Position numbers and translations under genes: made by a program | The notes under the pieces: model-generated | The model's database searches: none | What the model was told of the DNA's origin: nothing | What the model saw: the letters and a program-made list of their open reading frames with translations, nothing else | Shown: positions 1,471 to 20,497 of the stretch, piece by piece | Numbering within the stretch: the stretch's first letter is position 1 | Layout: every line of letters starts with the position of its first letter | Virus genome (UHGV): UHGV-0126501 | Length of the DNA stretch: 46,221 nucleotides | DNA from: a virus | Direction: 5' to 3' (one strand)

Positions 1471-3927
1471 TTAAAAATCAGCCTGACTCGGGATCAGTTT
1501 TTGCCAGATAGCTGAAACGTATTTTGCCTGGTAACGGGCGTCATCAAGTGCATTATGGCGCTCACCTTCGAATGGAATAGCCGTTCTGGCATCGAAGTCT
1601 ATGGCTTTCCCCAGCTCAACGATTGTGCGTACATCGCGATCGTTGTAGTAACGCCACGGGCAGGGGATCCCCTGCCGTTCGTATGAACGGCGCAAAATCG
1701 TGTTGTCGAAGTTGGCTCCATTTCCCCAGACCTGAACAAAAAATTCACCGGAGTTTTCGTCGATAAATTCTCGTAATTGTAACAGTGCATCATCTAACGG
1801 GATTTCATCGGTCATAATGGCAGATTGCGCTTCGCGTGATTGCTTCAGCCACCATTTAATAGTGTCCCGATCAATGACTCCGCCAGCAGTTTCCAGATCG
1901 ATAGTCTTACTAAATTCCGGTCCCATATCTCCGGTTTGCGGATCGAAAAATATTGCACCTATTGAGATAATCGGGGCATCAGGATTTTTTCCCATGGTTT
2001 CGAGGTCAATCATTAGATGGTCACACGTCCTGCTGGTGGATGTGATTTCGTGATGACCGTTCACCTTAATTGAGTGATCTGCCGCCTCGCCAGTTTTATT
2101 ATCGCTGGCGTGGTCCTGAGCGCTGCCAGCGTTCTCCTTGTGTGGATGTTCAGCGCCTTCCATTTCCTCCGGATCGTTTTCCTGAACTTCAACCTGATTC
2201 TCTTCATCGAATGTTTCCTGGTATGTTGCGTCGCACATCACCGCGCCACAATCAGGGCAGTTGCCGCCACCGCTCTGACCGCAGGCGGTGCAGACTTTTT
2301 CCGGTTCCTGTTGCGCTACTGGCTCAGGTTGTTTCGTTTCTGGCTCGTTTTGTAACTCATTTGGGCTGTTTTGTTCCGCTTTCTGGTCGTTCTGTTCCGT
2401 TTCTTGCTGGTTCTGATTCACTGAATCGCGGGTTTCAATCCCCTTCACCCATTTCGGATCATTCGGGTCGCTAATCCCTGCAACAAATTCACCGCGAGAG
2501 GCCGCAAGCAACTTATCGGCGTCAGGCTGGCTGGTATTGGCTGCCTGCATAATTTTGTTTACTTCGTCAGCGGTAACTTTTACCTGATTAACCGGATCTA
2601 TCTGTGCCTGAGTATCCAGCGATTGCGTGTCCTGGCGATGTTCAGTTGTATCCGGCTCCATTGCTTCAGTCGTTGCCTGTTCATCTGCCATTGCGTCAGA
2701 CGGTTGTGATTTTTCCTCATTATTTTTTTCTTCTTCTGTTTCGCATTCAGCAGCCAGTTCGCGGTTAACTTCTTCCAGGATATCTTTTTCCGGTGTATGT
2801 CGTGCAGCAGCGAGAGTTTCCTCGGTAGGGTTCTCGTGATCAGTCTCCGTTAAATAGGCGTTGATATACCCCTGAAGGCGTCCCGGGTAATGATAAAACT
2901 CAGGGTGTGCGCTCCGGATAAGTGCAAAAATAGCGGCGCGGGAATAATCCAGGATACCCGGGATTGCGCGAAGTGCTGCGGACCATTCTTTGAACGGACT
3001 TTCTTTCTTCCGGACGACTTCTTTTGCGCGACGATAAACGCTGCCCGGAATTTCATAAATATTAAAATCCATCGGAAGTGTGGCCGCTGCAATCTCCACA
3101 TCCAGCGTATCGAAGGTGTGTACTAAATTCGGATTGCGATCGGTTTTGTTCCCTCCACCGGCATTAGCACCGGAAGCCGTGCGGGTGATGCGTGAAACAC
3201 GATTTCCTTTCATCCACTCTTTTGTCAGCAGACCGCGATCGGTGTAGTCAGCGCCCAGGTATGCTTCGAAAAAAGCAGTCATTAGCCCCAGGCCTGAATT
3301 GCCAGGATTAGGGAAAACTTTGTCAGTATCACGCACCAGTTTGTGGAGATCGCGAATTTCCAGTGGATCGAGCAGACTGGTTTTATGCGAAATAGCGAGG
3401 GCAGTAACAGCTGGTAGTTCTTCAGCCCGTGCAATGTGTAATGCCTGGAGTTCGTCGCGTGAAACGTGCGTTACCGGTTTTTCGCTGCCGCGTTGAGCAA
3501 GCCAGCGAATGGGCAGTTCCTGACCGGAAACCGGCAGAAGCATGTTCTCCTCAATCTCAGCCATGTCTTCGCCGTTGACGTTGGTATTGTCAGTGCTGGC
3601 TGGTTTATCCTGAACAGAGGGCGAGGGCGCGATAAGTACCATTGTGATACCATCTTCCCCGCCTTTTTCGTATCGGTTGCAGAATTCGGTATCAAACACG
3701 CCTTCCGGAGGAAGGTCATTCACAACGGGTAAATGGACGCGAACAGGTTTTTTAAAATCCTCTTCGTCAAATCCGGCATCGTCCATTGCGACAACACCGC
3801 GTGATATTGCAACCGATAATTTTTTTGCTGTGCGCCAGTAAAAACCGCCTTTAATCCCAAGACGTTTTCTGACTTTGTCATTTTTGGCTTCGTAATATAG
3901 TGCAATTTCTTCTTTATCAGTGCTCAT
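1471..3927 (-). CDS. Large exonuclease with C-terminal DEDDh (DnaQ-like) 3'-5' exonuclease domain, annotated in prophages as exodeoxyribonuclease VIII-like
   Basis: 818-aa ORF; C-terminus has IDLETMG (Exo I), ...WGNGANFD... and [11 protein letters not shown] (Exo III, H-x4-D) motifs; acidic central linker with a Cys4 cluster ([20 protein letters not shown]). Confidence 0.75.
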
Positions 3928-12450: not shown

Positions 12451-12730
12451 AAGGAAACAAAACAGAAACAACAATTGCCGTTATCTGTTGTTACCATGGC
12501 AAGTAAACGTATCTCAGGCGAGCGCATTGCGCCGTTCTGACGCAGATAAACTAGCCTGGATAGATGGTGCTGGCAATAAAAAATAGCGTTTTCTTATCGG
12601 TGTCGGTAAGATTGCTGCGGGTGCTTGAGGCTGTCTGCCTCGGGCATGCCACTGTAAGGCAGACAGAGAAAAGCCCCAGTTAACATTACGCGTCTTGCAG
12701 GACGCTTAACATTAATCTGAGGCCCAATCT

Positions 12731-12943
12731 ATGCCATACAAACATAGGTTAGCCTCTTACGTGCCGAAAGGCAAGGAGAAGCAGGCTATGAAGCAGCAAA
12801 AGGCGATGTTAATCGCCCTGATCGTCATCTGTTTAACCGTCATAGTGACGGCACTGGTAACGAGGAAAGATCTCTGCGAGGTACGAATCCGAACCGGCCA
12901 GACGGAGGTTGCTGTTTTCGTGGACTACGAATCTGAGAAGTAA
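12731..12943 (+). CDS. Mok-like in-frame N-terminal extension of Hok (modulator of killing)
   Basis: Upstream in-frame ATG gives a 70-aa product, analogous to chromosomal MokC/HokC where Mok is an N-terminally extended Hok. Confidence 0.45.
   Translation: MPYKHRLASYVPKGKEKQAMKQQKAMLIALIVICLTVIVTALVTRKDLCEVRIRTGQTEVAVFVDYESEK
12788..12943 (+). CDS. hok: Hok/Gef-family type I toxin (small membrane peptide)
   Basis: MKQQKAMLIALIVICLTVIVTALVTRKDLCEVRIRTGQTEVAVF... matches the Hok/Gef signature (TM helix, LTRKxLCE, periplasmic tail); SD AAGGAGAAG. Confidence 0.9.
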   Translation: MKQQKAMLIALIVICLTVIVTALVTRKDLCEVRIRTGQTEVAVFVDYESEK

Positions 12944-13011: not shown

Positions 13012-13036
13012 TAACCCGCTTCGGCGGGTTTTTTCA
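13012..13036 (+). terminator. Rho-independent terminator (ACCCGC-TTCG-GCGGGT + T6)
   Basis: GC stem with UUCG tetraloop and T-run; 3' end of the hok transcript; identical element repeated at 13853-13876. Confidence 0.8.
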
Positions 13037-13154
13037 CGTACTGTGGTTGTGAATACGATTGGTATTAGGCTATGCTAACAACATTAGCCTGACTAATTTT
13101 GTATTGACTTGATTTTTTGTTAAAGAACAGGACGGAGAAGTAAGGGTACACCCA

Positions 13155-13334
13155 ATGAGCTACGCACTAAAAAAACACCCGCGATTGACTATTCCCCCTC
13201 GCGATAAAAGCGTTGTGGCAGCTCCGCGCCCGGCTATTGATGAAAATTGCACACATCGTGAGCAGGTGAAAAATGCTTTCGATTTCGGTTTTTCTCGTTA
13301 CGAGAAGGCAATGGAAGAACTTTCAAAAGTGTAA
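13155..13334 (+). CDS. Small ORF upstream of doc; candidate antitoxin
   Basis: 59-aa ORF (MSYALKKHPRLTIPPRDKSV...EELSKV) ending 18 nt before the Doc start; by position only. Below the ORF-track length cutoff. Confidence 0.35.
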   Translation: MSYALKKHPRLTIPPRDKSVVAAPRPAIDENCTHREQVKNAFDFGFSRYEKAMEELSKV

Positions 13335-13352
13335 TAATGGGTATTGTGCTCT

Positions 13353-13838
13353 ATGGCTGAGATTGTTGAAGGAGTGCACTATCTTTCGGTTGATGATCTT
13401 ACTGAAATCAATCGCCTTTTAATTGAGCTTCAAACACCAGATGAACCTGTAGGTGTGCTGAGTGTTGATAATTTAAGTTCTTCTCAGGCCCGTCCCAGCA
13501 TGGTTCGATGGTATGAACAGACTAATGACATGTTTGTACTGGCATCGGTATTGATTGAAAGTCTGATTCAGAATCATCCGTTTGCTAATGCGAACAAACG
13601 AACAGCTATGATGGCTGGTTACGTCTTCTTGTTGTTGAATGGCTATGAGTTAACAGCACCAGGCGATGAAATCGTGGAAATGGCAGAGGGACTGGCCTGC
13701 AAAACCTATACTCGAGAAGATCTCGAGAACTGGTTGTGTTATTGGTCTCGTGCGTATGACAGTCGGGAATTATGTAAAACAGGCGCAACTATTGTTTTGT
13801 ATGAAACTATCAAGCTTAAAATAGAACAGCAAAACTAA
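13353..13838 (+). CDS. Doc (death-on-curing) / Fic-family toxin
   Basis: Doc-type Fic motif HPFANANKRTA (H-x-F-x-[DN]-[AG]-N-K-R). Confidence 0.8.
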   Translation: MAEIVEGVHYLSVDDLTEINRLLIELQTPDEPVGVLSVDNLSSSQARPSMVRWYEQTNDMFVLASVLIESLIQNHPFANANKRTAMMAGYVFLLLNGYELTAPGDEIVEMAEGLACKTYTREDLENWLCYWSRAYDSRELCKTGATIVLYETIKLKIEQQN

Positions 13839-13852
13839 AGGTGCTTCCAATG

Positions 13853-13876
13853 AAAACCCGCTTCGGCGGGTTTTTT
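13853..13876 (+). terminator. Rho-independent terminator, identical copy of the one at 13012-13036
   Basis: AAAACCCGCTTCGGCGGGTTTTTT. Confidence 0.8.
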
Positions 13877-13951: not shown

Positions 13952-14224
13952 ATGGCGCACAATACCAAACATCACAATTCTGATACCGACCTTGCCAGCA
14001 GGCACGGGCGGCGTTCTCATACATTCAAATATGACTGGTACCAGCATGACCCATGCACTGAAGAACAGGCCGAATGGCTGATTCAGAACTACCGCAGACG
14101 TGGCTACGAGTTTCAGAAAGATCTCAGCTTCGATCGTCGTCACTGGATAATCTCCGTCAGGCTCCCTTATTCCGAACGTCCGCCGCGTCCGTCCCGCACA
14201 TTCCAGCAACGGATCTGGAGGTAA
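13952..14224 (+). CDS. Hypothetical small basic protein
   Basis: ORF after the terminator; its last codons contain the GGAGG SD of the next gene, implying translational coupling. Confidence 0.4.
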   Translation: MAHNTKHHNSDTDLASRHGRRSHTFKYDWYQHDPCTEEQAEWLIQNYRRRGYEFQKDLSFDRRHWIISVRLPYSERPPRPSRTFQQRIWR

Positions 14225-15287: not shown

Positions 15288-15659
15288 ATGCTCATAGATT
15301 TGGTTTTGCCTTACCCGCCGACGGTGAACACCTACTGGCGACGTCGTGGCAGCACATATTTTGTATCAAAAGCCGGTGAGCGTTATCGCCGGGATGTGGC
15401 ACTTATTGTTCGCCAGCAGCGGTTGAAATTAAACCTGTCCGGAAGGCTGGCGATAAAGATCATTGCAGAGCCGCCGGATAAGCGCCGTCGTGACATGGAC
15501 AATATTCTGAAAGCACCACTGGATGCACTGACACATGCGGGGTTGCTTATCGACGACGAGCAGTTTGATGAAATCAATATAGTGCGCGGTAAGGTCGTTC
15601 CTGGTGGTCGGTTGGGCGTGAAGATTTGCGAAATTAGAGGTGATAGTAATGGGGCGTGA
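15288..15659 (+). CDS. rusA: RusA-family Holliday junction resolvase
   Basis: 123 aa; LPYPPTVNTYW...RRRDMDNILKAPLDALTHAGLLIDDEQF matches RusA conserved regions including the catalytic Asp cluster. Confidence 0.85.
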   Translation: MLIDLVLPYPPTVNTYWRRRGSTYFVSKAGERYRRDVALIVRQQRLKLNLSGRLAIKIIAEPPDKRRRDMDNILKAPLDALTHAGLLIDDEQFDEINIVRGKVVPGGRLGVKICEIRGDSNGA

Positions 15660-16005
15660 TATGTATGAGGTTTTAGACCGCTGGGGGGCATGGGCTGCAG
15701 CAGAAAATAGTGGTGTCGATTGGCAGTCGATAGCGGCAGGCTTCAAGGGGCTTCTACCACACGGTAAAAAGTCACGCCTCCAGTGTGATGATGATGAAGG
15801 TATTATGATAGACGGTTGTGTGGCCCGCCTGCGGAAATATAAACCAGAAGAATATGAGCTGATCATTGCCCACTTTGTTATCGGGATTTCACTGAGGACG
15901 ATTGCAAAAAGAAGAAAATGTTGTGATGGAACTATTCGCAAAGAACTTCAAACAGCTATGGGGTTCATATCAGGTGTTTTGTCGCTGTTAAGCGAAGCCC
16001 AATAG
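15649..16005 (+). CDS. Late-gene antiterminator Q-like protein (short Q family)
   Basis: Position after rusA as in DLP12/lambdoid phages; ATG at 15649 with AGAGG SD, overlapping the rusA stop; Cys-containing C-terminal half. Confidence 0.55.
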   Translation: MGRDMYEVLDRWGAWAAAENSGVDWQSIAAGFKGLLPHGKKSRLQCDDDEGIMIDGCVARLRKYKPEEYELIIAHFVIGISLRTIAKRRKCCDGTIRKELQTAMGFISGVLSLLSEAQ

Positions 16006-16017
16006 GGCTTCGCTTAA
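15988..16017. other. 13-bp perfect stem hairpin spanning the convergent stop codons of Q (+) and the C5-methyltransferase (-)
   Basis: TTAAGCGAAGCCC-AATA-GGGCTTCGCTTAA; no U-tract on either side. Confidence 0.6.
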
Positions 16018-17054
16018 ATCGACGAAATTATAGCTCTCCCAAGTGCTTCAGCCATCTTGGGAGGAACCGCATTCCCAATTTGTTTTGCTTTTGATACTAA
16101 CGACCCCGTGAAGGAATAGTCTAATGGGAATGTCTGTAATAACGCAGCCTCTCTAACTGAAATTGCTCGGTCTTGTTCAGGATGCCCGAAACGTCCATTC
16201 GAATAGCTTATACACCTAGTCGTTAAGCCACTTGCAGGTTTGTCCCATGAAAGACGTCCATAAACATCCGTATGCCCTTTATATTTCTTATGGCATTCTA
16301 AGATCAAATTCTCAGGCCAAGACTCCCTTCCTTTTCCCTCTGGGGTAGCTTTTATGCGTTTAATATTCAGTTCGGACAGCCTGGCTGCTGTGTGATCAAT
16401 TATCTCTTTATGAGTTTCACCTGCAGCTATAGGTGGTAAATTACCGATCCAATCTCTTACCGTTGCAAACGGAGTTTCTACTCCGTCATGAGTTTTGGGT
16501 GGGAGCTTAATATGTGTGTGTCTTGACGCCAGCAAAACAAAACGTTCACGGGTCTGAGGAACTCCGAACCACAAAGCAGGAACAACACCAAAATCAACGT
16601 TGTAGTTATGATGAGTTAAAACTTCAAGAAATTTCTGGAAGTTTCCGTTATTGATATCGACGTTTTGGATTCCAGGCACATTTTCTATCAGTACGAAATC
16701 AGGAACATAATAAGATACAAAACGTGCAAATTCAGTCAGGAGATCTTTCCTGGGATCGTCGTTGTTCCGTGTTTTGTTCTGTTTTGAGAATGGTTGACAT
16801 GGGGCACATCCGCAAAACAAAGTCAGGGCTTTACATTTTTTTGAGTCAGAAATTAGATGATTAATATCTTCAACATGTGTATCTTTGATATCACCATTGA
16901 TGAAATGTGCTAATGGATTGTTTTTCTTGAAGGTATTAGACGAGTCTAGATCAATATCTAAACCAAATATAATTTCCATACCCACTGCTTTTAGGCCTGC
17001 ACTAGTGCCTCCGCAGCCGGAAAAAAAATCGTATACATGTATCTTTTTAGTCAT
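16014..17054 (-). CDS. DNA (cytosine-5)-methyltransferase
   Basis: Motif I FSGCGG, motif IV PCQPFS, motif VI ENV, motif VIII QTRERF, motif X GNAVPP. Confidence 0.9.
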   Translation of the reverse strand: MTKKIHVYDFFSGCGGTSAGLKAVGMEIIFGLDIDLDSSNTFKKNNPLAHFINGDIKDTHVEDINHLISDSKKCKALTLFCGCAPCQPFSKQNKTRNNDDPRKDLLTEFARFVSYYVPDFVLIENVPGIQNVDINNGNFQKFLEVLTHHNYNVDFGVVPALWFGVPQTRERFVLLASRHTHIKLPPKTHDGVETPFATVRDWIGNLPPIAAGETHKEIIDHTAARLSELNIKRIKATPEGKGRESWPENLILECHKKYKGHTDVYGRLSWDKPASGLTTRCISYSNGRFGHPEQDRAISVREAALLQTFPLDYSFTGSLVSKAKQIGNAVPPKMAEALGRAIISSI

Positions 17055-17057
17055 TAT

Positions 17058-18848
17058 CTACCTCACTCTTGGTCTGATAGTATCATTATCTAAAAAGATT
17101 TGCAGCAACTCTCGAGTTTTCGTTAACATTTCATGATCATTCGGTATTTTATTTAGCATTCTAATTTGAGTTTCAAAGATATCATCACTAGTAACATTAT
17201 CCAGCCCAGTATCGAGTTTACAAATTTCCTTAGTAATTTGTTTAGCATCTTGAACGTCTTTCGAAATTAATTCTTTATATTCCTTGTAGTCTCCATAGAC
17301 ATTTTCAATAAGAAATATTTCAGGCGTGTAAACAGGAAGGAAACCGATGCTATCGTGAATGAAATCGATGAAATCTCTTTGCATTTTATATTTTTGGCTA
17401 TGATTAGCTACACCTTTAGAGCCATCGCAGTTAAATTTGATGTCTTGGTTTGTTATTGATTTTATAATATCCTGAAGATTAGGGTTCTCGTTTTCTGGTA
17501 TTGAGTCAGAGGTTGGGTAGTTATCAACAATAGATTGATCACCATCTAGCAAAAAAATAACGTTTTTAACGTTAGCAACACATAATGGGGCTGCTAAAGT
17601 TTGAAAAATACTTCCGGCCCCTCCAGGAAAGTGCTTGACTTCAAAGGAGTTTAATAATGCTTCACCACCTGCTTTAAGAGCTTTCTCTACAAACCTCTTA
17701 GCCAAGCGATCTTCTACAATAACTGTTCTCTTCTCGATTCGCTCACCAAGGATGAAGAAAGATTCTTCTGGGCTGACATTTTGCAGAACATCAACTTTTC
17801 CTAATTTATCATTCAGGCAAAATAATTTTATAGCATTTTTCGGTAAGTCTTTTACTATTGTTGATGAATGAGTGGATATCACAATTTGATGTTTCTTTTT
17901 AATTGCTTGTTCAGATAAAAATTCCATTAATTGGCATTGTGCTGAAGGGTGAAGCGATACTTCAGGTTCGTCTAAAAGAATTAGTGATGCGTTTGGACTG
18001 TCTATTAGTTTATGTACTAAAATAGATACGGCGAATTCTCCACTACCAGCGAATGCTTCAGAATATTTTAAGTTTTCTGACTGAAGTATAATTGTTGGAG
18101 CTTTGTCATTCGTAAATAAGCAATGCTCGATAAGTCTAATACTAGTGTATTTTCGCCCTAAAATTTTGCTGATTGCCTCAACTTTATTTTTGCCTAATAA
18201 AGTATTGACAAAGAGTTTATCTTTTTTACCTTTGTGGGGTTGATATTTTTTTAGATCGTTATCGATGATTTCTCTTAGCATTTGACTGCGTTTTCTAAGA
18301 TAATCCTTCTTGGGATATGTATGAAAGTCAGAATGATAAAAGAATTTATCGAATGCACTTATCGTTGCTCTGAAATCTAAATAGATTACATTTTTATCAA
18401 TGGCTTTCCATCGTGTTTTTAATTGGTTATCCGAAAGTATTGTATCAGGCATAGTAGCCATATTATCTGATTTTAGAGGCCTAGAAGGTTCCCAGTAGTC
18501 AGGATCATTTTCTTTAGAAATTCGGGTTTTGATTACTTCAACAATAGAATCAGTAGCTTTATCATAATATCCATAAATGAATCTTGAGCGACCACCGTCT
18601 TTAATTTCATCCACATCTGTAGAAAACCATAGGCTACCTAATGAATAGTTGTTTGGTGAGCCGAAAAGGGCTCTTAAAACTGAGCTTTTATTCGTTCCAT
18701 TTTGACCGACCAACGCCGTGACTGGATAATCAAAATCGATTTTGCTTCCTTCGGCGAGGTTTTTGAAAAATGGGAAACGAATATGTCTAATAAATGGCTC
18801 AATCTGAGCGGATGCCATAATTTGTTTTAGTTTTAAATGGTTGTTCAT
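17058..18848 (-). CDS. OLD-family-like ABC ATPase with C-terminal TOPRIM-like acidic motifs (putative ATP-dependent nuclease)
   Basis: P-loop GQNGTNKSS, Walker B/D-loop LILLDEPEVSLHP, C-terminal VIVEDR and LLDGDQS motifs; 3 nt upstream of the C5-MTase on the same strand; AT-rich. Confidence 0.65.
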   Translation of the reverse strand: MNNHLKLKQIMASAQIEPFIRHIRFPFFKNLAEGSKIDFDYPVTALVGQNGTNKSSVLRALFGSPNNYSLGSLWFSTDVDEIKDGGRSRFIYGYYDKATDSIVEVIKTRISKENDPDYWEPSRPLKSDNMATMPDTILSDNQLKTRWKAIDKNVIYLDFRATISAFDKFFYHSDFHTYPKKDYLRKRSQMLREIIDNDLKKYQPHKGKKDKLFVNTLLGKNKVEAISKILGRKYTSIRLIEHCLFTNDKAPTIILQSENLKYSEAFAGSGEFAVSILVHKLIDSPNASLILLDEPEVSLHPSAQCQLMEFLSEQAIKKKHQIVISTHSSTIVKDLPKNAIKLFCLNDKLGKVDVLQNVSPEESFFILGERIEKRTVIVEDRLAKRFVEKALKAGGEALLNSFEVKHFPGGAGSIFQTLAAPLCVANVKNVIFLLDGDQSIVDNYPTSDSIPENENPNLQDIIKSITNQDIKFNCDGSKGVANHSQKYKMQRDFIDFIHDSIGFLPVYTPEIFLIENVYGDYKEYKELISKDVQDAKQITKEICKLDTGLDNVTSDDIFETQIRMLNKIPNDHEMLTKTRELLQIFLDNDTIRPRVR

Positions 18849-19450: not shown

Positions 19451-20497
19451 ATGGCCAATACTGTAAAAATATCCAGTTGTGAGTTAATCAACGCTGATTG
19501 CCTGGAATTTATCCAGACCTTACCGGAAAACTCTGTCGATCTGATAGTCACAGACCCGCCATACTTTAAAGTGAAGCCTGAGGGCTGGGATAACCAGTGG
19601 AAGGGCGACGATGATTACCTGAAATGGCTGGATCAGTGTCTGGCGCAATTCTGGCGGGTACTGAAACCTGCCGGAAGTCTCTACCTGTTCTGTGGTCATC
19701 GCCTGGCATCTGATATCGAAATCATGATGCGTGAGCGCTTTAATGTGCTGAACCACATTATCTGGGCGAAGCCGTCCGGACGCTGGAACGGATGCAACAA
19801 GGAAAGCCTGCGGGCGTATTTCCCGGCAACAGAACGCATTCTGTTTGCAGAACATTATCAGGGGCCATACCAGCCCAAAAATGACGGCTATGCGGCAAAG
19901 GGGCGCGAGCTTAAGCAGCACGTGATGGCTCCGCTGATTTCTTACTTTCGTGATGCGCGTGAATCACTGGGGATAACGTCAAAACAGATAGCTGAAGCCA
20001 CCGGAAAGAAAAACATGGCTTCGCACTGGTTTGGTACCAGTCAGTGGCAGTTACCGAATGAGGCCGATTACAGTAAACTACAGGCGCTGTTTGCACGTGT
20101 GGCGGCAGAAAAACACCAGCGCGGTGAACTGGAGCAGCCACACCACCAGCTGGTCAGCACATACAGCGAACTGAACCGGCAATATGCCAGCCTGCTGGAG
20201 GAATACAAATCACTGCGGCGTTATTTTTCCGTATCGGCTGTCGTTCCTTATACGGATGTCTGGACGCACAAGCCCGTGCAGTATTATCCGGGCAAACATC
20301 CCTGTGAAAAACCGGCGGATATGTTGCGTCAGATAATTACTGCCAGCAGTCGTCCTGGCGATTTGGTCGCAGATTTTTTTATGGGGTCGGGGTCGACAAT
20401 AAAAGCGGCACTGTCGCTGGGACGCAGGGCGATTGGCGTGGAACTGGAAGAGGAACGTTTTAATCAGACGGTCAGAGAAATAACGAAAGATTTTTAA
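19451..20497 (+). CDS. DNA methyltransferase, beta-class amino-MTase (N6-adenine or N4-cytosine)
   Basis: Motif IV DPPY (LIVTDPPYF) precedes C-terminal motif I FxGxG (DFFMGSGST). Confidence 0.85.
   Translation: MANTVKISSCELINADCLEFIQTLPENSVDLIVTDPPYFKVKPEGWDNQWKGDDDYLKWLDQCLAQFWRVLKPAGSLYLFCGHRLASDIEIMMRERFNVLNHIIWAKPSGRWNGCNKESLRAYFPATERILFAEHYQGPYQPKNDGYAAKGRELKQHVMAPLISYFRDARESLGITSKQIAEATGKKNMASHWFGTSQWQLPNEADYSKLQALFARVAAEKHQRGELEQPHHQLVSTYSELNRQYASLLEEYKSLRRYFSVSAVVPYTDVWTHKPVQYYPGKHPCEKPADMLRQIITASSRPGDLVADFFMGSGSTIKAALSLGRRAIGVELEEERFNQTVREITKDF

What the first reader, a model, noticed from the sequence alone, without database searches (positions are those of the whole stretch)
13012..13876. 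Doc/Fic toxin module bracketed by two identical intrinsic terminators
Seen: the same 22-nt element AACCCGCTTCGGCGGGTTTTTT occurs at 13014-13035 and 13854-13876, flanking a unit made of a 59-aa ORF plus a Doc-motif protein (HPFANANKR). Inference: duplicated terminator ends suggest the doc unit was inserted as a self-contained cassette. The upstream ORF is an antitoxin candidate by position only.
Basis: partly seen in the sequence, partly recalled or inferred. Interest (0 to 1): 0.55.

Follow-up and report, generated by a model that had tools for sequence, protein, structure and literature searches.

The report
Doc toxin cassette in prophage slot
This is an ordinary add-on gene cassette in a lambda-like prophage, carrying a Doc-type toxin and a tiny uncharacterised partner protein that is probably its antidote, sitting between two copies of a very common transcription stop signal.

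Summary
The copies bracket a 59-aa ORF (13155-13334) and a 161-aa Doc-family toxin (13353-13838, motif HPFANANKR).

Related phages have the same flanks with one terminator and no cassette. Others carry different cargo in the same hok-ydfU slot. The cassette is 42% GC against 50-54% for its neighbours, so it is a classic phage "moron".

The two terminators are not a demonstrable insertion duplication.
- The left copy is the resident hok/sok terminator.
- The right copy travels with doc into other contexts.
- The same 22-mer occurs in at least 115 unrelated phage contexts.
- Homology breakpoints fall at the T-tracts, so the terminators look like module joints.

The 59-aa ORF is more than a positional candidate.
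- A homologue lies 2-21 nt upstream of doc in at least 8 unrelated genomic contexts.
- It is under strong purifying selection (dN/dS 0.05-0.09).
- It matches no known antitoxin family.
- It is predicted to be a disordered N-terminus plus one C-terminal helix.

I read it as a probable minimal antitoxin without a DNA-binding domain. Neutralisation is untested. Interest is modest.

The parts
12619..12793 (+). Rfam 'sok' match. It marks the regulatory leader of the neighbouring hok/sok type I toxin-antitoxin locus.
   Evidence: RF01794, 117.2 bits (gathering score 59), E 3.6e-26.
12731..12943 (+). mok/hok reading frame (hok proper runs from ATG 12788). This is the upstream module, whose transcript ends at the left terminator.
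   Evidence: PF01848 HOK_GEF, 1.1e-22; homologues are annotated mokW/hokW or hokD.
13013..13034 (+). Left copy of the 22-nt terminator. It is the resident hok terminator and the left module joint.
   Evidence: -11.9 kcal/mol hairpin plus T6. It is present after hok in relatives with an empty slot or other cargo.
13035..13154 (+). 5' untranslated and control region of the cassette. It has weak sigma-70-like hexamers TTGTGA (13047-13052), an 18-nt spacer and TATGCT (13071-13076), plus a conserved ATTAGRCT box.
   Evidence: 8 of 12 hexamer matches. The arrangement TTGTAA-18-TATCCT recurs in L011, and TTGACC-18-TAGACT (9/12) in Salmonella L020. It falls below the threshold of the promoter scan, so the promoter is inferred, not shown.
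13155..13334 (+). 59-aa ORF (PHROG 2208, function unknown), the probable antitoxin. Residues 1-33 are predicted to be coil and residues 34-57 a helix.
13353..13838 (+). Doc-family toxin, 161 aa, with the active-site motif HPFANANKR encoded at 13575-13601.
13855..13876 (+). Right copy of the 22-nt terminator (extended hairpin 13852-13875). It is the cassette's own terminator and the right module joint.
   Evidence: It follows doc in L006, L007, L008, L010 and L011 whatever lies downstream. Similar hairpins follow doc in Ewingella and Pantoea phages.
13955..14224 (+). First resident gene downstream of the slot (89 aa, PHROG 1212, ydfV-like). It is followed by DUF968/ydfU, rusA and Q.
   Evidence: The same gene directly follows the single terminator at the empty site in phage Evi.

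Best explanation
The region is a phage 'moron': a horizontally acquired, self-contained two-gene unit in a variable slot of the nin region of a lambda-like prophage. The slot lies between the hok/sok locus and the ydfV/ydfU-rusA-Q genes.

The unit comprises a weak promoter region, a 59-aa gene, an 18-nt gap, a 161-aa Doc-family toxin gene and its own strong terminator.

Inferred mechanism, from family knowledge: Doc is a Fic-fold kinase that phosphorylates EF-Tu and arrests translation. The 59-aa protein is its cognate antitoxin. It would neutralise Doc by direct binding through its conserved C-terminal amphipathic helix, as the C-terminal 22 residues of Phd do for P1 Doc. It lacks any DNA-binding domain.

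The two identical terminators are the 3' ends of two adjacent modules, hok and doc. Their job is to insulate: they keep constitutive toxin-antitoxin transcription in the lysogen from running into Q and the late genes.

Because the same short hairpin ends many modules, it is also where modules are joined. The cassette was probably gained, and can be lost, by recombination between terminator copies. That would leave one copy at an empty site and two around a filled one.

Shown: the anatomy, Doc family membership, the empty and alternative sites, the conserved pairing, purifying selection, and the joints at the T-tracts.

Inferred: toxicity, neutralisation, promoter activity and the recombination route.
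For: Doc identity
- TIGR01550 gives 7.6e-37 and Pfam Fic 8e-12, both above the curated cut-offs.
- PHROG 577 'Doc-like toxin' gives 2e-50.
- The closest solved chains are 9vzc (1.8e-13) and P1 Doc 3k33 (9.4e-5).
- The residues H, F, N, N, K, R of HPFANANKR are invariant in 40 subfamily members.

Cassette and slot
- Phage Evi has hok, one terminator, then the same downstream sequence.
- Across E. coli genomes the span between the flanks takes at least five values: about 760 bp (empty), about 1058-1134 bp (rem, as in K-12), 1430 bp (a 130-aa ORF), 1601 bp (doc) and 2058 bp (doc plus another gene).
- The cassette's GC is 0.421 against 0.50-0.54 for the flanks.
- The cassette is in 125 of 5426 complete E. 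coli genomes.

Joints
- Sequence similarity between variants breaks right after the T-tract of the hok terminator. At least four different continuations are seen.
- It also breaks right after the doc terminator, with three different continuations.
- L010 has the cassette without hok.

Pairing
- A homologue of 56-62 aa lies 2-21 nt upstream of doc in every Doc context examined. These are lambdoid nin regions, an Ewingella/Pantoea myovirus baseplate module, a Salmonella siphovirus tail region, a dinI-umuDC neighbourhood, the Providencia chromosome between topA and sodC, and two metagenomic or assembly contexts with distant members.
- Partner identities co-vary: 64-95% for the small protein and 64-96% for Doc.

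A real gene
- dN/dS is 0.05-0.09, with a third-position excess of substitutions.

Shape
- AlphaFold2 predicts coil for residues 1-33 and a helix for 34-57 with pLDDT above 90.
- PMC9207808 shows that Phd residues 52-73 alone, disordered when free and helical when bound, neutralise Doc.

Precedents
- Morons carry their own promoter and terminator (PMC3594210).
- In T4-type phages a gene flanked by two regulatory stem-loop cassettes corresponds to a single cassette in the sister phage (PMC2839356).

The prophage itself encodes a RecE-type exonuclease VIII domain protein.
Against: - No experiment or complex model links the 59-aa protein to Doc.
- The small protein has no detectable similarity to Phd or any antitoxin family.
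- No consensus-grade promoter was found in the window's cassette, so expression in the lysogen is unproven.
- One strong family member (L016) and two weak ones (L147, L148) are not followed by Doc.
- A 22-nt repeat is short for efficient homologous recombination. The terminator is generic, so joints at terminators could simply reflect selection for intact transcription units after illegitimate recombination.
- No near-isogenic empty site was found. Flanks of empty sites are only about 88-90% identical to the window.
- The Doc structure model was poor (pLDDT 53.6).
Confidence: 0.7

Rival explanations
1. The repeat is a true target-site duplication. An actively mobile element (transposon-like, or one that targets hairpins) inserted into the hok terminator and duplicated it.
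For: There are two exact 22-nt direct repeats at the ends of an insertion, against a single copy at the empty site. In L002 and L003 a different cargo in the same slot is also bracketed by terminator copies, the left one degenerate.
Against: - The cassette encodes only the 59-aa protein and Doc, with no transposase, integrase or intron ORF.
- There are no terminal inverted repeats beyond the hairpins themselves.
- The right copy stays with doc in contexts where there is no left copy (L010) or where the downstream partner differs (L006, L007, L011).
- Doc in Ewingella and Pantoea phages already carries a similar hairpin.
- The 22-mer occurs in at least 115 unrelated contexts.
Confidence: 0.07
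2. The terminators play no part in mobility. The cassette arrived by illegitimate recombination or ordinary mosaic exchange. The two hairpins are identical only because this UUCG-loop terminator is a convergent, very common optimum. Their sole role is transcriptional insulation.
For: The exact 22-mer is found in at least 120 viral contigs in almost as many different neighbourhoods. The rem cargo in the same slot has no second terminator. 22 nt is short for recombination.
Against: Homology breakpoints on both sides, in several independent variants, fall exactly at the end of the hairpin/T-tract rather than at random intergenic positions. The two-copies-filled, one-copy-empty topology matches the documented stem-loop-mediated shuffling in T4-type phages.
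Confidence: 0.3
3. The 59-aa ORF is not the antitoxin. It could be a leader or regulatory peptide, a chaperone or an unrelated co-transcribed gene. Doc would then be controlled otherwise (an RNA, a host factor or its own C-terminal extension) or be non-toxic.
For: There is no similarity to any antitoxin family and no DNA-binding domain. Family members occur without Doc in L016, L147 and L148. This Doc subfamily has about 35 extra C-terminal residues relative to the 126-aa P1 Doc chain, conserved up to about residue 140.
Against: - The ORF is strictly adjacent to and co-oriented with Doc across at least 8 unrelated contexts and down to about 46-52% identity.
- Selection is strong on the protein sequence, especially the C-terminal helix.
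- The small-gene-first order and short gap are typical of type II modules.
- An orphan copy is what one expects of antitoxins.
Confidence: 0.2

Closest known systems
Phd/Doc of bacteriophage P1 (and Salmonella Phd-Doc)
   Same: The toxin belongs to the same family, by HMM and by the motif H-x-F-x-(D/N)-(A/G)-N-K-R as I recall the Doc consensus. A small upstream partner gene sits in the same orientation. The partner's C-terminus is predicted to be a roughly 24-residue helix after a disordered stretch. That resembles Phd 52-73, which alone neutralises Doc (PMC9207808). By my own manual, ungapped end-to-end alignment of residues 38-59 with Phd 52-73, F42, F46 and L56 line up with Phd F56, F60 and L70, and both proteins end three residues after that Leu. 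This rests on inspection of the sequences, not on a tool.
   Different: Identity to P1 Doc is low (E 9.4e-5 over 63 residues). This Doc is 161 aa rather than 126. The partner is 59 aa, has no Phd/YefM DNA-binding domain and shows no detectable homology to Phd (hhalign probability 1%). The location is a chromosomal lambdoid prophage slot, not a plasmid prophage.
Phage morons (HK97 gene 15 type; Cumby, Davidson and Maxwell 2012, PMC3594210)
   Same: It is extra DNA relative to related phages, has deviating GC and its own terminator, and carries cargo useful in the lysogen. PHROG 577 is itself filed under 'moron, auxiliary metabolic gene and host takeover'.
   Different: The promoter is only weakly predicted here. 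The cargo is a two-gene toxin-antitoxin pair.
PeSL regulatory cassettes of T4-type phages (Arbiol et al. 2010, PMC2839356)
   Same: A gene flanked by two copies of a regulatory stem-loop element in one phage corresponds to a single element in the relative. The stem-loop is a functional terminator, and recombination between copies is proposed to shuffle modules.
   Different: PeSLs are about 100-bp promoter-plus-stem-loop units conserved within one genome. Here the repeat is only 22 nt, contains no promoter, occurs twice in the window, and no mini-circles have been looked for.
hokD-rem-ydfU region of the E. coli K-12 Qin prophage
   Same: The flanks are the same (hok, then the ydfV/ydfU-type genes, rusA and Q) and so is the hok terminator. 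K-12-type genomes match both flanks of the window at about 87% (rows H124-H132).
   Different: K-12 carries rem in the slot and no second terminator. The window carries the doc cassette.
Composite Doc modules with non-Phd antitoxins (for example mazE-doc TasA-TasB, PMC1626090; Panacea-domain antitoxins, PMC8832971)
   Same: They show that Doc toxins pair with unrelated antitoxin families (titles and abstracts).
   Different: Those antitoxins have recognised domains. The 59-aa family has none.

Membership tests
Doc (death-on-curing) toxins, Fic/Doc superfamily | Profile match above the curated cut-off | tested here: met
   TIGR01550 gives 126.2 bits (cut-off 38.65) and PF02661 gives 46.3 bits (cut-off 24). 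PHROG 577 gives 2e-50.
Doc (death-on-curing) toxins, Fic/Doc superfamily | Doc-type active-site motif H-x-F-x-(D/N)-(A/G)-N-K-R (consensus as I recall it from the Doc kinase literature) | tested here: met
   HPFANANKR is encoded at 13575-13601. H, F, N, N, K and R are invariant in 40 subfamily members.
Doc (death-on-curing) toxins, Fic/Doc superfamily | All-helical Fic fold | tested here: inconclusive
   The AlphaFold2 model is mostly helical but has mean pLDDT 53.6. No fold search was run on it. Sequence similarity to solved Doc chains exists.
Doc (death-on-curing) toxins, Fic/Doc superfamily | Phosphorylates EF-Tu and arrests growth | not testable with these tools
   This needs toxicity and kinase assays.
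Type II toxin-antitoxin module | Small co-oriented partner gene immediately next to the toxin, with the pairing conserved across contexts | tested here: met
   The gap is 18 nt in the window and 2-21 nt in at least 8 unrelated contexts. All 40 listed E. coli matches are annotated as a Doc-family toxin plus an unnamed protein ('hypothetical protein', once 'bacteriophage protein').
Type II toxin-antitoxin module | Antitoxin binds and neutralises the toxin | not testable with these tools
Co-expression and pull-down experiments are needed.
Type II toxin-antitoxin module | Antitoxin carries a DNA-binding domain that autoregulates the operon | tested here: not met
   There is no Pfam, NCBIfam or PADLOC domain. 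The model shows only one helix after a 33-residue coil. The profile hits among 1.84 billion representatives are nearly all 38-95 aa proteins; three of them are 82-95 aa with N-terminal extensions I did not scan for domains, and two are long proteins matched only over short stretches.
Phd/YefM antitoxins | Sequence or profile similarity to Phd/YefM | tested here: not met
   There is no Pfam or NCBIfam hit. A profile search of the PDB does not retrieve Phd chains. hhalign against P1 Phd gives probability 1%.
Phage moron | Extra DNA compared with otherwise collinear relatives | tested here: met
   Empty sites occur in phage Evi and in many E. coli prophages.
Phage moron | Base composition differs from the surroundings | tested here: met
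   GC is 0.421 against 0.50-0.54.
Phage moron | Own terminator | tested here: met
   The hairpin at 13852-13875 plus a T-run folds at -14.9 kcal/mol and stays with doc in other contexts. Function in vivo was not tested.
Phage moron | Own promoter active in the lysogen | tested here: inconclusive
   There is only an 8/12 hexamer match (TTGTGA-18-TATGCT), conserved in position in L011. Better matches exist in the Salmonella and Providencia relatives. Nothing reaches the scan threshold.
PeSL-type stem-loop-mediated module shuffling | Filled site flanked by two copies of the element, empty site with one | tested here: met
   Precedent described.
PeSL-type stem-loop-mediated module shuffling | About 100-bp conserved promoter-plus-stem-loop unit repeated many times in the genome | tested here: not met
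   The repeat is 22 nt, has no promoter and occurs twice in the window.
Transposon or insertion sequence with target-site duplication | Element-encoded recombinase and terminal inverted repeats | tested here: not met
   The element holds only the 59-aa ORF and Doc. No terminal inverted repeats exist apart from the hairpins.

The most novel reading that the evidence does not exclude
The 59-aa protein (PHROG 2208) founds a minimal antitoxin family dedicated to one Doc subfamily of Enterobacterales phages and chromosomes. It would be a single neutralising helix plus a conserved R-L-x-I-P-x-R-D-K segment, with no DNA-binding domain, so the module is not autoregulated in the classical way. Orphan copies in phages, such as L016 next to a tail-tip gene, would then be counter-defence genes that disarm Doc-based abortive infection. 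In addition, the ubiquitous UUCG terminator would act as a portable recombination joint that lets such cassettes hop between phage modules, a lambdoid counterpart of the T4 PeSL mechanism.
Probability: 0.3. Interest if true: 0.5.

Novelty: new variant of a known kind. Interest (0 to 1): 0.3.

Why it matters
If the 59-aa protein neutralises Doc, it adds a compact antitoxin family with no DNA-binding domain to the Doc toxins. It also supplies a natural roughly 25-residue Doc-inhibiting helix unrelated in sequence to Phd, which is relevant to work on peptide inhibitors of Doc (PMC9207808).

The slot analysis gives a clean natural example of how lambdoid prophages swap small cargo units at a transcription terminator just upstream of Q. 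It also explains why each cargo needs a strong terminator there.

None of this overturns current views. The toxin is already annotated in 125 complete E. coli genomes, and both protein families are catalogued in PHROGs.

Tried and rejected
- Complex prediction. The two ORFs are in the same frame, so I tried to hand in the read-through translation. It was rejected for stop codons. A hand-fused chain was rejected as not being a window sequence.
- Doc structure. The AlphaFold2 model had pLDDT 53.6, probably because the alignment holds only relatives with at least 62% identity. I therefore ran no fold search.
- Known antitoxin families. Pfam, NCBIfam, PADLOC, a PDB sequence search and a PDB profile search all gave nothing for the 59-aa protein. 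hhalign against P1 Phd was negative.
- Fic-type inhibitory helix motif (S/T)-x-x-x-E-(G/N), as in class I Fic antitoxins. It is absent from the 59-aa sequence by inspection.
- Extension of the direct repeat beyond 22 nt. By eye, ACGTACTGTGGTT follows the left copy and ACGTATTCTGGTT follows the right. The repeat finder did not extend the pair, and the similarity is too short to use.
- Literature. Searches for this prophage Doc module, or for Doc as a moron, found no paper on it.
- Target-site duplication by an active element. Rejected for the reasons given under rival explanations.

Full report
**Observation**

The 22-mer AACCCGCTTCGGCGGGTTTTTT occurs exactly twice in the window, at 13013-13034 and 13855-13876 on the + strand. 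No further site appears even with three mismatches, and shuffled sequence gave none.

Both copies fold as G+C-rich stems with a UUCG loop followed by a T-run, at -11.9 and -14.9 kcal/mol. The right copy has an A-run before the stem and is the only one picked up by the consensus terminator scan.

Between them lie a 59-aa ORF (13155-13334) and a Doc ORF. The Doc start is ATG 13353, giving 161 aa as in RefSeq annotation of homologues. The two ORFs are 18 nt apart and in the same frame. HPFANANKR is encoded at 13575-13601.

**The proteins**

The larger protein is a Doc-family toxin by every sequence test available.
- TIGR01550 gives 126 bits against a cut-off of 38.65, and Pfam Fic gives 46 bits against 24.
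- PHROG 577 'Doc-like toxin' gives 2e-50.
- The nearest solved chains are 9vzc (1.8e-13) and P1 Doc.
- Its subfamily has at least 210 clusters across Enterobacterales.
- In a 40-member alignment the H, F, N, N, K and R of the motif are invariant.

The 59-aa protein has no hit in Pfam, NCBIfam, PADLOC or the PDB. It is PHROG 2208, of unknown function.

Its family is small. It has 17 clusters in the 5.8-billion-sequence collection. A profile search of 1.84 billion representatives gave 39 hits with E up to 0.001, nearly all 38-95 aa; two are long proteins matched only over short stretches.

Two segments are conserved: R-L-x-I-P-x-R-D-K near the N-terminus, and a C-terminal Q-V-x-N-A-F-x-x-G-F-x-R-Y-E-K-A-x-E-E-L-S-K-V. 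AlphaFold2 predicts coil for residues 1-33 and a confident helix for 34-57.

It is a real gene. Against two E. coli variants dN/dS is 0.05-0.09. In distant comparisons substitutions pile up at third positions.

**Is it the partner of Doc?**

Every Doc context I opened has a homologue of 56-62 aa lying 2-21 nt upstream, in the same orientation.
- Several different lambdoid nin regions in E. coli.
- A myovirus baseplate module in Ewingella and Pantoea.
- A siphovirus tail region in Salmonella.
- A dinI-umuDC neighbourhood.
- The Providencia chromosome between topA and sodC.
- Two contexts with distant family members at 46-52% identity.

Identities of the two partners co-vary, at 64-95% and 64-96%.

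There are exceptions. One strong family member next to a tail-tip gene is followed by a 76-aa non-Doc ORF (L016). Two weak hits also lack Doc downstream, on contigs where that gene is cut by the contig end.

The protein is not a Phd relative: hhalign probability is 1%. Even so, its shape matches what is known to suffice for Doc neutralisation. PMC9207808 shows that Phd residues 52-73 alone, disordered when free and helical when bound, inhibit Doc. In that work Phe56 and Leu70 are the key residues.

By my own manual, ungapped end-to-end alignment, F42, F46 and L56 of the 59-aa protein fall on Phd F56, F60 and L70. L56 is invariant across the 35-member family alignment; F42 and F46 are the majority residues but are replaced in several distant members. 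I treat this as an analogy, not as homology.

**Is the unit an insertion?**

Yes. Phage Evi has hok, one terminator, and then the same sequence that follows the right terminator in the window.

Across E. coli genomes the two flanks are separated by at least five different spans.

| Span between flanks | Slot content |
|---|---|
| about 760 bp | empty (for example O157:H7 and ST131 strains) |
| about 1058-1134 bp | rem (K-12 Qin type) |
| 1430 bp | a 130-aa ORF |
| 1601 bp | the doc cassette (38 genomes cover at least 80% of the query) |
| 2058 bp | doc plus another gene |

The cassette is 42.1% G+C against 50-54% for its neighbours. It occurs in 125 of 5426 complete E. coli genomes. These features match the definition of a phage moron (PMC3594210).

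A promoter is only weakly predicted. TTGTGA-18-TATGCT at 13047-13076 matches 8 of 12 hexamer positions. It is conserved in position in another E. coli variant, and better matches exist in the Salmonella and Providencia relatives. Nothing reaches the scan threshold.

**What the two terminators mean**

The left copy is the resident terminator of the hok/sok locus. That locus is identified by Hok Pfam at 1.1e-22 and Rfam sok at 117 bits. The left copy is present in all relatives, with or without doc.

The right copy belongs to the cassette. It follows doc when the downstream neighbour is a rem-like gene (L006, L008, L011), a RelE/HTH pair (L007) or the ydfV-like gene (window, L010). It also follows doc when hok is absent upstream (L010). 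In Ewingella and Pantoea phages doc is followed by near-identical hairpins.

The exact 22-mer is also a generic phage terminator. A capped scan found it in 120 viral contigs, with 115 different upstream and 119 different downstream 25-mers. Only 5 of these were of the hok type.

Identity of the two copies therefore does not prove duplication. What the comparison does show is that similarity between variants ends exactly at the T-tracts, on both sides and in several independent combinations. In L002 and L003 a different cargo is likewise bracketed by a degenerate left copy and an intact right copy.

The filled-site-two-copies, empty-site-one-copy topology is the one described for stem-loop regulatory cassettes in T4-type phages. 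There, recombination between copies was proposed and circles were detected (PMC2839356).

The window's prophage encodes a RecE-type exonuclease VIII protein. From general knowledge, such systems can use short homologies. Whether 22 nt suffices here is inference.

**Function in context**

All genes from about 7.5 to 16 kb are on the + strand, and Q lies at 15640-16005. The cassette therefore sits in the early-right operon, upstream of Q.

A constitutively transcribed unit placed there must end in a strong terminator, or it would drive Q and the late genes in a lysogen. That gives a selective reason for each module in this slot to carry such a hairpin. During lytic growth an antiterminated polymerase would be expected to read through, as with the nin terminators of lambda. 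This last point is inference from general knowledge and was not tested.

Two addiction-type modules, hok/sok and the doc pair, thus sit side by side. Whether they stabilise the prophage or exclude other phages cannot be decided here, and PADLOC has no model for either protein.

**Verdict**

- The idea that the repeat itself is an insertion scar is not demonstrable.
- The finding is an ordinary moron carrying a Doc toxin-antitoxin pair.
- The one moderately new element is the partner protein: a small, uncharacterised family without a DNA-binding domain. This makes it a new variant of a known kind.
- I found no paper on this module.

Noticed in passing
window 16014-18848 (- strand), with 19451-20497 (+): A second low-GC island (36.6% against 50.4% for the window) lies between Q and the late region. 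It holds a C5 cytosine methyltransferase (PF00145, 2.2e-59) and a 596-aa AAA_15/OLD-like ATPase (PADLOC HEC-04, 2.7e-35), on the opposite strand to the phage genes. An N6/N4 methyltransferase follows. It is probably a defence or anti-restriction moron.
   Followed up: partly
L016 859-1286 (JGI metagenome 3300013023): A strong member of the 59-aa family (E 2e-26) sits next to a phage tail-tip gene. It is followed by a 76-aa ORF with no similarity to Doc and no Pfam hit. An orphan copy in a phage could be a counter-defence against Doc.
   Followed up: partly
L146 529-1920: A distant 56-aa family member is followed by two Fic-domain genes in a row: a 145-aa Doc-like gene (55% identical to the window's Doc) and a 242-aa Fic protein.
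   Followed up: no
L002 1812-2440 and L003 1812-2510 (phages vB_EcoM-606R7 and vB_EcoS-689R5): The same hok-ydfU slot holds a 130-aa ORF with a signal-peptide/lipoprotein-like N-terminus. It is bracketed by a degenerate left terminator copy (AACCCGCTTCGGCG then T-run, whose hairpin is lost, -5.1 kcal/mol) and an intact right copy.
   Followed up: partly
L012 3830-3870, L014 3800-3850, L017 2225-2265: In other contexts the cassette's upstream region has better sigma-70-like promoters with perfect or near-perfect palindromes inside the spacer. Examples are TTACCTTTAAGGTAA and AATGAAAG-TTAG-CTTTCATT. These look like operators, although the 59-aa protein has no recognisable DNA-binding fold.
   Followed up: no
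window 13155-13838: The 59-aa ORF and doc are in the same reading frame, separated only by TAA TAA and five sense codons. Double-stop read-through would give a fusion protein. This is probably without significance, since the spacing differs in relatives (2-21 nt).
   Followed up: no
window 1471-3927 (- strand): An 818-aa protein combines an exonuclease VIII (RecE) domain with a C-terminal Rv2179c-like 3'-5' exoribonuclease domain.
   Followed up: no
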